A stretch of 32,000 nt of DNA, taken from the NCBI RefSeq assembly GCF_003863965.1, contig NZ_RRCN01000001.1, positions 5,555,054-5,587,053 on the forward strand. Direction: 5' to 3'. Positions within the stretch are counted from its first letter, which is position 1. Every line of letters begins with the position of its first letter. Positions 14,001 through 17,000 of the stretch are shown here, one piece after another. This stretch comes from Paenibacillus oralis (GTDB lineage: Bacteria; Bacillota; Bacilli; Paenibacillales; Paenibacillaceae). The position numbers were made by a program.

Positions 14001-17000
14001 GACAGCCGTTAGGACCCTATTTGGAAGAAAAGTATGGGATCCCAATTACGATCGAGAACGATATGAACATGACGGTATACGGCTTCTACCATCTGCAAAA
14101 TTTCGACGAAGATAAGACGTTTGCCGTGGTGACGTTTCCCAAGAACCATTTTCCCGGTGCCGGTTTTATCGTAGATGGAAGGATCTTATCGGGTAACACC
14201 ACATTTGGCGGGGAGGTGTCCTTCTTACCGTTTGGCATTTCCCGCGAGGAGCAGCTGCGGCAGCTGCATACAGAAGAAGGCTTTATCCGGCTGGCTGTTA
14301 TGACCCTATCCTCAATCATCGCCATTATTAACCCGGTAACCATTGCGATTACAGGCGAGTTGCCTCGTGAGTCACAACTTGAAGACCTTTATATGGGGTG
14401 CTTAAAGGATATTCCCGAGGAGCATATGCCGCAGCTCATGATTCGGAACAATACTCGTTTGGAATACATGACGGGCCTTGTCACAGCTACGCTGGAAAGT
14501 CTCACTTACCGGCTGCAGGTTACTCAGAATAGATAACAAGTTAGGAGTACACAAAGAGTGGAAAAAAGTATAGGCAAGTTCAACAAAATTTACGCCATGC
14601 AGCTGGCAACCATTTTTATTGGATTCGTCATCTTCGGGTTCTCGGAAAATATTAAAGGACCGGCGATACCGCGTATTCAATTCGATTTTATGCTAAGTGA
14701 ATCACAACTTGGTACTTTGTTATCCTTGAACGCCCTGGGTTATTTGATCGCCTGTTCCTTTACAGCTTATTTGACCAAAATATGGGGGATCAAATGGGTA
14801 ACCGTTGCCGCGTTCGCCTCTATGGCTGTATCCGGTATCCTAATTTTCTTCTCCCATTATTACCCGATGTTCTCGACTTCATATTTCCTGATGTATATCG
14901 GCAACGGGATGCTGGAAATTGGCCTGGCCATTCTTAGCGCGCGGATTTTCGTGAAAAACACGGGCATGATGATGAATATGACGCATGGCTTCTACGGCTT
15001 AAGCTCAACGGTCGCTCCGCTAATTGCAACTGGCCTGATGAAGGTGTCGATTGCTGGCCACACGCTGGATTGGCGCGGGATGTATCTGGTGATGCTGCTA
15101 TTATCCGTCATCCCGATTGTGATTGCTTTGTTCAGTACATTCCCGGGAGATGACATCGCTCACGATGATCGTATCCCATTAAAGGCATTGCTGAAAGACC
15201 GCGTATTATGGTTAATGGTGCTAGTGCTTACGTTTGGTGTTGTATCTGAATTGGCCGTTGGCGGCTGGCTCGTTAATTTTCTGGAAAAAGCTTATAGCTG
15301 GGATACCGTTAATGCTTCCGGGATGTTATCCATCTTCTTCTTATGCTTCGCGCTGGCCCGGCTATTGCTTGGCCCGCTAACAGATCGGATAGGCTTTGTA
15401 TTATCTCTCATGATCTTCTCGGGGTTTTCGGCATTATGTACATTTATTGCAATATTCGGTGGTGAAAGTGTCGCGTTTCTGTTTGCTGCTTCCGGTATAG
15501 GTATTGCGATGATTTATCCGACAGTGATGGCTTTTATCGCAAAGAGATATCCGAAGGGCAGTGATACGGCGATCACATTCACTGTAACGTTGATGGGATT
15601 AGGCAGTGTGATCGGCAATTATCTCATCGGGGGAGTCACGGAGCTTGTCAAACACATGGTTGGTGAAGATTCGCCCACAAGCCTGTTTCGTGGACTTCAA
15701 GCCGGCTACAGCTTTATTGGATTATGTGCAGCATTATGCGCAATAACCGGACTTATTTTATACGTTTATTTGTATAAGAGAAAAGAGGTCATCTAAATCA
15801 TATAAACGGCAATATTCAATCCTTGGGGCTTCGATATTGCCGTGTTTCAATTTGCGGGGTTAGATAAATCCATTATGAAACTGGGTGGTACCACGTGAGC
15901 TAAGACTCTCGTCCCTTTAGGGATGGGAGTCTTTTTGTTGTTTTTCTATAAAAAGGAGGTAAATTTCCTTGGATTGGGGAGTCGACGTACCGGTCGAAGG
16001 TTTCGAGGGAAAGAAAATATTCGCAAGGCTAACAAATTCTTTGACGAGGAAAAGCCTTGGGTTACTTATCGGGAAAACCCGGATCAATGCGCCCACACCC
16101 TGTTCACCTGCACACAAATTATCGCCAGCCTCGGGAATTTGTTGAATCCGTTCATCCCGGCGGCTTGTAGGAAGTTGGGGTCCTTATGAAAATCTTAATA
16201 ATTTCTCAAGCTAGAAGTCATAAATATAGTTGCCGAATTTAGTAAAATAGTAGGATGTTGAGTTCTGTCTGAAAGGAGCTGAAAATCATGTTCGCTAAAG
16301 TTCTCGTTGTTGACGATGAACATGAAATAGCGGATTTAATAGAAGTGTATCTACGAAATGAAAATTATGAAGTGTTCAAGTTTTACTCTGCAAAGGAAGC
16401 TCTTGCCTGCATTGATCGGGCGGAGCTTGATCTGGCCATTCTGGACATTATGCTGCCGGACATCAATGGCTTTACGCTTTGCCGGAAAATACGGGAACAG
16501 CATACCTATCCTATCATTATGCTGACGGCCAAAGATGAAGAGACGGATAAAATTACGGGGCTAACCTTGGGTGCCGACGACTACATCACAAAACCGTTCC
16601 GTCCGCTTGAGATGGTAGCGCGTGTAAAAGCACAGTTGCGGCGCTATAAAAAATACAACACGCCGCAGTCTGCGCCTGTTACTGAGGCTGTAATCGTCCA
16701 TTCAGGTTTGGTTATGGATGTAAACACGCATGAGTGCCTACTGAATGAACAACCTCTTGAACTGACACCCACCGAGTTTTCCATACTCCGCATTTTACTG
16801 GAGCGAAAGGGCAGGGTGGTGAGTGCCGAGGAACTTTTTTCTGAGATTTGGAAGGACGAGTATTACAGCAAAAGCAACAATACGATCACCGTCCATATCC
16901 GTCACTTGCGTGAAAAAATGGGCGACACTGTAGAAAAACCAAAGTATATCAAAACAGTATGGGGGGTCGGCTATAAAATTGAAAAGCAATAAGAAGGGCA

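What the first reader, a model, noticed from the sequence alone, without database searches (positions are those of the whole stretch)
15841..16189. Fossil T-box leader plus shredded MetRS-like gene forming the left junction of the van cluster
Directly upstream of vanR lies a T-box core (AAACTGGGTGGTACCACG) with an intact 13-bp terminator and a strong RBS. There is no room for stem I or the specifier loop. The downstream 'gene' is two out-of-frame scraps: 'DWGVDVPVEGFEGKKIF' and 'ANKFFDEEKPWV...NPFIP'. These correspond to regions roughly 150-200 residues apart in a methionyl-tRNA synthetase. An auxiliary T-box-regulated aaRS gene therefore appears to have been destroyed by several deletions exactly where the van cluster begins. 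The site may mark the insertion or recombination scar, and the residual terminator could insulate vanR from MFS-operon read-through.
Basis: partly seen in the sequence, partly recalled or inferred. Interest (0 to 1): 0.6.

Follow-up and report, generated by a model that had tools for sequence, protein, structure and literature searches.

The report
Dead T-box metS2 gene remnant
Just upstream of the vancomycin-resistance genes lies the wreck of a second, T-box-controlled methionyl-tRNA synthetase gene whose reading frame is still whole in a sister strain. This is ordinary gene decay that happened after the resistance cluster was in place, not the scar of its arrival.

Summary
Window 15871-16168 holds the last 101 nt of a T-box leader (T-box box, terminator, RBS) and two out-of-frame scraps of a MetRS gene.

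A sister genome, G046 (Paenibacillus macerans MER 50.2), carries at the same chromosomal site T-box, metS2 (546 aa), marR, MFS and vanRSHAX. The window's pieces match it at 96-98% nt and correspond to MetRS2 residues 232-249 and 442-493. A metagenome allele keeps a consensus promoter and a complete T-box (103 bits, above Rfam's cut-off of 93, AUG specifier).

At least six allelic states of this gene occur in the P. macerans group, all next to the same van cluster. The gene therefore decayed repeatedly and independently after van and metS2 were already neighbours. One junction in the window is a deletion between two 8-nt GAAAATAT repeats.

The fossil's left edge is the right end of a genome-specific ROK-MFS cassette, not the edge of the van cluster. 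The "insertion scar" reading is not supported. The "insulating terminator" idea is plausible but untested, and one strain lacks the terminator altogether.

Verdict: a real, well-resolved pseudogene relic of a known kind, of modest interest.

The parts
13352..15870 (+). G000-specific ROK regulator + MFS412 cassette with its own promoter-like site and terminal hairpin. Its right end forms the left edge of the fossil and replaced the promoter and stems I-III of the T-box leader.
   Evidence: It has no counterpart at this site in G010 or G046, which hold only 65-67% paralogs elsewhere. The best matches are 89% in another genus and 86% in G065, covering query 51-2496. Annotation is and the promoter-like site at 13433-13461.
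15871..15971 (+). The last 101 nt of the T-box leader: T-box box 15878-15895, terminator hairpin 15902-15933 with its T-run, RBS 15955-15959, and a TTG at 15969.
   Evidence: 96% identical to G046 L024rc 3386-3487 and to G010 L025 8599-8697. RF00230 scores 21.7 bits with only the 3' part aligned. See also the alignment with intact leaders, the terminator scan and the fold.
15969..16022 (+). MetRS2 scrap 1, corresponding to residues 232-249 of the intact protein. It is fused to the old RBS by a 689-bp deletion (junction J1, 1-2 nt of microhomology).
   Evidence: blastn gives 98% to L024rc 4177-4232; BLASTP gives 17/18 residues; the junction was read.
16013..16020 (+). GAAAATAT, the surviving copy of an 8-nt direct repeat at junction J2. 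A 575-bp (blastn estimate; repeat spacing 4222->4808 gives 586 bp, also not a multiple of 3) deletion between the only two copies in the gene shifts the frame.
   Evidence: Junction read. The repeat copies lie at L024rc 4222 and 4808 and nowhere else in the gene.
16013..16168 (+). MetRS2 scrap 2, from the anticodon-binding domain (residues 442-493), out of frame with scrap 1.
   Evidence: blastn gives 97.5% to L024rc 4808-4964. BLASTP gives 50/55 residues. Pfam Anticodon_3 and PDB MetRS 1rqg residues 466-515 also match.
16169..16181 (+). A 13-nt stretch, AGGAAGTTGGGGT, shared only with the G010-type allele. G046-type alleles have the stop codon of MFS409 at this position. This is junction J3, where the metS2 3' end, marR and MFS409 are missing.
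   Evidence: Three-way comparison of the vanR upstream region; L134 and L135 show the G046-type sequence.
16179..16287 (+). Conserved vanR upstream region with a promoter-like site, TTCTCA-16-TATAGT, at 16203-16230. It is common to all alleles.
   Evidence: 95-96% identical in G010, G046, L134 and L135; promoter scan.
16288..20909 (+). vanR, vanS, vanH, D-Ala-D-Lac ligase and vanX (context).
   Evidence: NCBIfam hits: vanR_ACDEGLN 389.7 bits, VanS 400.8, D_ala_D_lac 621.7 and VanX 378, each above its curated cut-off; VanH 519.2 bits against a cut-off of 540, just below.

Best explanation
Window 15871-16168 is the non-functional remnant of an ancestral operon that lay directly upstream of vanRSHAX in the Paenibacillus macerans group. 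That operon read: sigma-A promoter, T-box leader (Met, AUG specifier), metS2 (an auxiliary 546-aa MetRS of the archaeal/E. coli-like type), marR, MFS.

In this genome four events destroyed it:
1. A ROK-MFS412 cassette replaced everything left of the T-box box.
2. A 689-bp deletion fused the RBS to codon 232.
3. A 575-bp deletion (blastn estimate; the repeat spacing gives 586 bp) between two GAAAATAT repeats joined codon 249 to codon 442 out of frame.
4. The 3' end of metS2, together with marR and the MFS gene, was lost.

Nothing here encodes a working synthetase or a working riboswitch. The only piece likely to retain activity is the intrinsic terminator. Without Stem I and the specifier it can no longer be switched off by uncharged tRNA-Met, so it should terminate constitutively any read-through from the ROK-MFS cassette ahead of vanR's own promoter.

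Shown: the homology, the junctions, the intact and alternative alleles, and the presence of a housekeeping MetRS. Inferred: the order of events, the neutrality of the loss, and the activity of the terminator.
For: - Synteny: G000, G010 and G046 are collinear on both flanks at 92-96% identity and hold the van cluster at the same site.
- Intact relative: G046 carries T-box, MetRS (546 aa; Pfam tRNA-synt_1g 476 bits plus Anticodon_3), MarR, MFS and vanR. The window's three pieces map onto it at 96-98%.
- The G046 ORF keeps every column that is invariant among 11 orthologs.
- A complete ancestral leader survives in allele L139: a TTGACA-17-TATAAT promoter and a T-box at 103.1 bits, above the cut-off of 93. 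Orthologous metS2 leaders score 103-113 bits. Scores fall to 59.2 in G010, 50.3 in G046 and 21.7 in G000.
- Independent decay states: G010 plus about 20 P. macerans contigs keep the leader and 44 codons, with the start codon changed from GTG to ATA. Logan and ENA alleles carry a 262-bp internal deletion. TH7-28 keeps only the C-terminal 158 aa.
- Junction microhomologies were read.
- A housekeeping MetRS (677 aa, 30% identical) is present in all three genomes.
- Among 80 loci with metS2 relatives, only G046 has van next door. The fossil is not found on plasmids.
Against: - No contig examined holds both a complete leader and a complete ORF. The ancestral operon is therefore a composite inference from L139 (leader) and G046 (genes).
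- G000 and G010 share 13 nt at the right junction that G046-type alleles lack, and G010 has 70 nt of unknown origin there. The exact history of the marR-MFS loss is unresolved.
- Terminator activity is inferred from sequence and fold only.
Confidence: 0.9

Rival explanations
1. One reading: the van cluster inserted or recombined into a resident T-box-metS2 gene. On this view the scraps are the scar of that event and mark the left boundary of the mobile van element.
For: The scraps do lie immediately upstream of vanR. The slot between the Cass2/173-aa genes and the PadR/ABC genes is variable among species, holding different cargo in G057. The whole metS2-van block could therefore once have been imported.
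Against: - G046, TH7-28 and the Logan alleles have the same van cluster, at 96% identity, with metS2 whole or differently broken and with marR-MFS409 lying between metS2 and vanR.
- The deletions differ from lineage to lineage.
- The junctions inside the gene join one part of metS2 to another, not metS2 to van.
- The left edge of the fossil is a G000-only ROK-MFS cassette.
- No recombinase, transposase or repeat brackets the junction in the window.
Confidence: 0.04
2. Exaptation: the T-box terminator has been kept by selection as a constitutive insulator that shields the VanRS-controlled promoter from upstream transcription, while the rest of the operon was free to decay.
For: In G000 the 101-nt piece survives between two independent deletions or replacements. 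The hairpin is strong. The same piece persists in the G010, G046 and L135/L139 alleles. The single stem difference in G046 keeps pairing as a G-U wobble, read from the alignment.
Against: - The TH7-28 allele has lost the whole leader, terminator included, yet keeps vanRSHA (vanX lies beyond the fetched locus).
- In G046-type alleles three genes lie between the terminator and vanR, so it cannot insulate vanR there.
- Its 96% identity equals that of the flanking DNA, so there is no excess conservation.
- The MFS412 cassette brings a terminal hairpin of its own at about 15808-15850 (sequence).
Confidence: 0.12
3. The open frames left behind (TTG 15969-16145, 58 aa; ATG 15923-16189, 88 aa) are expressed as new small proteins.
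For: A strong RBS lies 9 nt before the TTG. Both frames are open.
Against: They sit directly behind an intrinsic terminator and no promoter-like site lies between. Their only similarity is to MetRS pieces. The 88-aa product is not on record anywhere. Other alleles have entirely different remnants.
Confidence: 0.02

Closest known systems
T-box leader (Rfam RF00230) of aminoacyl-tRNA synthetase genes, here a Met-specific one
   Same: It keeps the 14-nt T-box sequence within an antiterminator/terminator arrangement, followed by the RBS of an aaRS gene. It descends from a leader that passes Rfam's cut-off in allele L139, with specifier AUG.
   Different: Stem I, the specifier loop, Stem II/IIA-B and most of Stem III are gone. 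The score is 21.7 bits against a cut-off of 93. It cannot sense tRNA, so it is a relic rather than a working member.
Auxiliary MetRS2 (metS2) of Bacillus cereus-group bacteria and Streptococcus pneumoniae. From my own knowledge, this is the second MetRS that is insensitive to MetRS1-directed inhibitors such as REP8839.
   Same: The intact relative is a second MetRS alongside a housekeeping enzyme that is 30% identical. It is 57-60% identical to copies in the B. cereus group and Lysinibacillus. Its best structural relatives by sequence are the archaeal, human and E. coli enzymes rather than the Gram-positive MetRS1 type.
   Different: In this window only 18 + 52 codons remain. Inhibitor insensitivity was not tested for any Paenibacillus copy.
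vanRSHAX loci of Paenibacillus macerans strains and P. oralis, described in Genes 2022;13:1960 (PMC9689679)
   Same: The same gene order, vanRSHAX, in the same species group. MER 50.2 (G046) is one of the strains listed there.
   Different: That paper never mentions tRNA, a tRNA synthetase or a T-box next to the locus: the term 'trna' occurs 0 times. The metS2 neighbour and its serial decay are not described there.
Pseudogene erosion by deletions between short direct repeats (a general phenomenon)
   Same: Junction J2 lies between two 8-nt repeats. The Logan allele's deletion lies between GTAYGG repeats.
   Different: Nothing unusual, except that many intermediate states are preserved in sequenced relatives.

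Membership tests
T-box leader (RF00230) | Reaches Rfam's gathering score | tested here: not met
   21.7 bits against 93. As controls, orthologous leaders score 103-113 bits and allele L139 scores 103.1.
T-box leader (RF00230) | Stem I with specifier loop (codon) and distal tRNA-elbow platform | tested here: not met
   Homology to intact leaders starts only at 15871, just before the T-box box. Upstream sequence belongs to the ROK-MFS412 cassette.
T-box leader (RF00230) | Conserved T-box sequence forming the antiterminator bulge, overlapping an intrinsic terminator | tested here: met
   AAACTGGGTGGTACCACG lies at 15878-15895 and is invariant in the alignment with five other leaders. The terminator is at 15902-15933.
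T-box leader (RF00230) | tRNA-dependent antitermination | not testable with these tools
   Needs in vitro transcription or reporter assays. Loss of function is expected because Stem I is absent (inference).
Methionyl-tRNA synthetase (class I, Pfam PF09334 + PF19303) | Catalytic Rossmann domain with HIGH-type and KMSKS-type motifs | tested here: not met
   Only residues 232-249 and 442-493 remain. The HLGR motif (residues 18-21) and the KFSTS motif (about residue 330) seen in the intact protein are deleted.
Methionyl-tRNA synthetase (class I, Pfam PF09334 + PF19303) | MetRS anticodon-binding domain | tested here: inconclusive
   A 50-residue piece hits PF19303 at 30.3 bits against a cut-off of 23.5, but it covers only profile positions 48-97 of 152 and is out of frame with any start.
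Auxiliary MetRS2 type | A second MetRS gene beside a divergent housekeeping MetRS, closer to archaeal/E. coli-type enzymes | tested here: met
   Tested on the intact relative in G046: the housekeeping copy is 677 aa and 30% identical, and the top PDB hits are 1rqg, 5gl7 and E. coli MetRS.
Auxiliary MetRS2 type | Insensitivity to MetRS1-directed inhibitors | not testable with these tools
   Needs enzyme or MIC assays.

The most novel reading that the evidence does not exclude
The ancestral block T-box-metS2-marR-MFS-vanRSHAX was a single composite resistance island. On this reading the inhibitor-insensitive MetRS2 and the efflux pump were acquired and selected together with glycopeptide resistance, for example against a co-occurring natural MetRS inhibitor. 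The serial loss of metS2 in today's strains would then record the disappearance of that second selective pressure.
Probability: 0.07. Interest if true: 0.55.

Novelty: new member of a known kind. Interest (0 to 1): 0.28.

Why it matters
The finding clears up what sits at the left side of the P. macerans-group van locus. That position holds a decaying auxiliary synthetase operon and a lineage-specific sugar-kinase-like regulator/transporter cassette, not a mobile-element boundary. This matters for anyone inferring how van genes moved into Paenibacillus.

It also gives a compact natural series of at least six allelic states of one T-box-aaRS operon, from a full leader to a 101-nt stump. Such a series is useful as a teaching or benchmark case for riboswitch and pseudogene annotation, because Rfam's cut-off misses the relics and gene callers emit 158-aa and 266-aa "class I tRNA ligase" fragments. 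It does not reveal a new mechanism.

Tried and rejected
- Rfam at gathering threshold found no T-box in the window or in G010. E-value mode was needed.
- Van-negative relatives that share the left flank (G057, G004, G016, G006, G061, G063) show no synteny beyond the 173-aa gene and hold no metS2 or van there. Their metS2 orthologs, 67-71% nt identical, lie elsewhere, about 1.5 Mb away in G006. The proposed "empty site with intact metS2" does not exist in the genomes searched.
- G+C content does not separate metS2, van and the flanks; all lie between 40% and 50%.
- The three MFS genes (G000 MFS412, G046 MFS409, G057 MFS408) are unrelated.
- The origin of G010's 70-nt filler and of the 13 nt shared by G000 and G010 was not found in G046.
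- Exact look-ups of the window's own VanR, ligase and 88-aa scrap ORF returned nothing on record.
- The plasmid collection matches only vanR coding sequence, at about 70% to Tn1546.
- No tyrosine recombinase was found downstream within the window, although the 2022 paper reports one near P. macerans van loci.

Full report
**What is there.** The gene order around the finding is: ROK-family regulator (13490-14536), MFS transporter of 412 aa (14558-15796), the finding, then vanR (16288-16992), vanS, vanH, a D-Ala-D-Lac ligase and vanX.

- T-box box AAACTGGGTGGTACCACG at 15878-15895.
- A 14-bp terminator hairpin at 15902-15933 with a T-run. The 91-nt segment folds at -28.5 kcal/mol, z = -3.0.
- GGAGG at 15955-15959 and a TTG at 15969.

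Rfam finds no T-box at its curated cut-off. In E-value mode RF00230 scores 21.7 bits (E = 0.01), and only the 3' third aligns with confidence.

The two coding scraps are real MetRS pieces. The second hits the Pyrococcus abyssi MetRS structure 1rqg, residues 466-515, at E = 3.6e-6. It also hits Pfam's MetRS anticodon-binding domain above its cut-off.

**The intact relative.** A search of 41 related genomes with the 491-nt interval found many matches to the T-box box and terminator alone, which are ordinary T-box leaders. One genome of the same genus, G010, matched both the leader stump and the vanR upstream region at 95-96%, but with different DNA in between. In G010 that DNA is a longer T-box leader (59.2 bits) plus the first 44 codons of a MetRS.

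A genus-wide search then found G046. There the leader and the vanR upstream region lie 3.5 kb apart. G046 is Paenibacillus macerans MER 50.2.

In G046 the interval holds an uninterrupted 546-aa MetRS (Pfam tRNA-synt_1g 476 bits plus Anticodon_3), a MarR regulator and a 409-aa MFS transporter, followed directly by vanRSHAX.

G000, G010 and G046 are collinear on both sides of the locus at 92-96% nt identity. The van cluster therefore occupies the same chromosomal site in all three.

**Mapping the scraps.** blastn of the window against the G046 locus (reverse complement of L024, "L024rc") gives these matches:

| Window | L024rc | Identity |
|---|---|---|
| 15871-15971 | 3386-3487 | 96% |
| 15968-16023 | 4177-4232 | 98% |
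| 16013-16169 | 4808-4964 | 97.5% |
| 16179-20851 | 7107-11778 | 96% |

In protein terms the scraps are residues 232-249 (17/18 identical) and 442-493.

The junctions, read, are:
- J1 fuses the old RBS to codon 232. It removes 689 bp with 1-2 nt of microhomology.
- J2 lies in an 8-nt GAAAATAT that occurs exactly twice in the gene, at L024rc 4222 and 4808. It removes 575 bp by blastn coordinates (the repeat spacing gives 586 bp), and either length shifts the frame.
- J3 removes the 3' end of metS2. Relative to G046 it also removes marR and MFS409.

**The left edge.** Left of 15871 the window has 2.5 kb (13352-15870, the ROK and MFS412 genes) where G010 has only about 440 bp: the terminator of the 173-aa gene and the leader's promoter and stems I-III.

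This cassette is absent from G010 and G046, which hold only 65-67% paralogs elsewhere. Its best matches are 89% in another genus and 86% in one congener. Those matches cover the cassette up to about window 15847, so they include its own terminal hairpin. The fossil's left boundary is therefore the right end of a lineage-specific cassette, not the boundary of the van cluster.

**More alleles.** The 90% cluster of the MetRS2 protein has four members: two of 546 aa and two fragments of 158 and 266 aa. Their contigs show further states:
- In Paenibacillus sp. TH7-28 an epimerase gene abuts the last 158 codons, and homology starts at L024rc 4637. marR, MFS409 and the van genes vanR-vanS-vanH and the ligase (to the end of the fetched locus) follow.
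- In several Logan and ENA assemblies metS2 carries a 262-bp internal deletion between GTAYGG repeats. marR, MFS409 and the same van genes (to the ends of those contigs) follow again.

One of the ENA assemblies, L139, keeps a perfect TTGACA-17-TATAAT promoter and a complete T-box leader. That leader scores 103.1 bits, above Rfam's cut-off, and its specifier context is GAA-U-AUG-G. Orthologous metS2 leaders in other Paenibacillus score 103-113 bits and share the same GAAUAUGG.

The G010 state is 99.6-99.7% identical in about 20 further P. macerans contigs. Its start codon is mutated from GTG to ATA.

In G046 the 5' half of Stem I has been replaced by the end of a YolB-like ORF, and the leader scores 50.3 bits. 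So even the strain with the intact ORF has a damaged leader. That ORF still keeps every column that is invariant among 11 orthologs, including HLGR and KFSTS.

**What kind of gene it was.** All three genomes have a 677-685-aa housekeeping MetRS that is only 30% identical to the 546-aa protein. The 546-aa protein is closest by sequence to the archaeal, human cytoplasmic and E. coli MetRS structures, not to the Gram-positive MetRS1 type.

It is 57-71% identical to a family spread through Paenibacillus, Lysinibacillus and the B. cereus group. This corresponds to the auxiliary "MetRS2". The link to inhibitor insensitivity comes from my own knowledge and was not tested here.

Among 80 loci holding relatives of this gene, only G046 has van genes beside it. 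The fossil is not found on plasmids.

**Interpretation.** The simplest history is as follows. The common ancestor of the P. macerans group carried P-T-box(Met)-metS2-marR-MFS409 immediately upstream of vanRSHAX. With a housekeeping MetRS present, metS2 was dispensable. It has since been eroded independently in different lineages by replacement on the left and by internal deletions between short repeats.

G000 and G010 share 13 nt (AGGAAGTTGGGGT) just before the conserved vanR upstream region, where G046-type alleles have the MFS409 stop codon. Their common ancestor probably already differed there, so marR-MFS may have been lost before the lineage-specific deletions. I could not resolve this further. 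G010's 70-nt filler has no source in G046.

"Destroyed by several deletions" is right. "Scar of the van insertion" is not, because the same van cluster coexists with whole or otherwise broken metS2 genes, and the junctions inside the gene join metS2 to metS2.

The actual outcome differs but is equally decisive: van-positive relatives carry the gene intact. Van-negative relatives that share the left flank have unrelated cargo in this slot.

The insulating-terminator idea remains a reasonable inference for this genome. There is no sign of selection for it: its identity equals that of the flanks, TH7-28 has lost it, and in G046-type alleles three genes separate it from vanR.

**Limits.** The ancestral operon is a composite of two alleles. 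Only one genome per species is held for the genus scan, so the frequencies of the states come from exact-protein look-ups.

**Verdict.** This is a real and cleanly explained pseudogene relic. It is of modest interest, and the mechanism is ordinary.

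Noticed in passing
window 20910-21240: The roughly 320 bp immediately after vanX is a multi-copy repeat. Other copies in G000 match at 89-91%, with 219 first-look candidates, and there are many copies in G046, G010 and G047. G010 lacks it at this site, and G046 has an amidohydrolase gene plus a MarR gene there instead.
   Followed up: partly
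window 13352-15870: The ROK regulator + MFS412 two-gene cassette is specific to this genome at this site. The closest copies are 89% in a different genus and 86% in one congener, which suggests import or relocation. It starts right after the stop codon of the 173-aa gene.
   Followed up: partly
window 13356-13381 and 9430-9456: The 27-nt motif noted earlier (GGGAGAAT.GTGTCATTTT.TTGTGAC) has copy B 4 nt inside the left end of the G000-specific cassette (synteny break at 13351/13352). Copy A lies inside another G000-specific segment, 8057-9507, relative to G010. It may be a repeat that travels with inserted DNA.
   Followed up: no
L024 8754-9092 (-) and neighbours in G046: In P. macerans MER 50.2 a TetR / DUF1648 / YolB-like block has replaced the promoter and the 5' half of Stem I of the metS2 T-box. 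The intact metS2 ORF there probably lacks normal tRNA-responsive control.
   Followed up: partly
window 5240-5357 (-): A clear match to Rfam RF02449, Bacillus sRNA ncr1015 (108 bits against a cut-off of 60), upstream of the rph-like gene.
   Followed up: no
window 20238-20909: The vanX ORF here is 223 aa, against 216 aa in G046 and 218 aa in the main P. macerans lineage. The C-terminal end differs among alleles.
   Followed up: no
L036 (G000:C1:6450308-6454846): The leader of the housekeeping metS contains a T-box core, matched at 83% by the fossil, yet it does not reach Rfam's gathering score of 93 bits. The cut-off also misses some presumably functional T-boxes in this genome.
   Followed up: no
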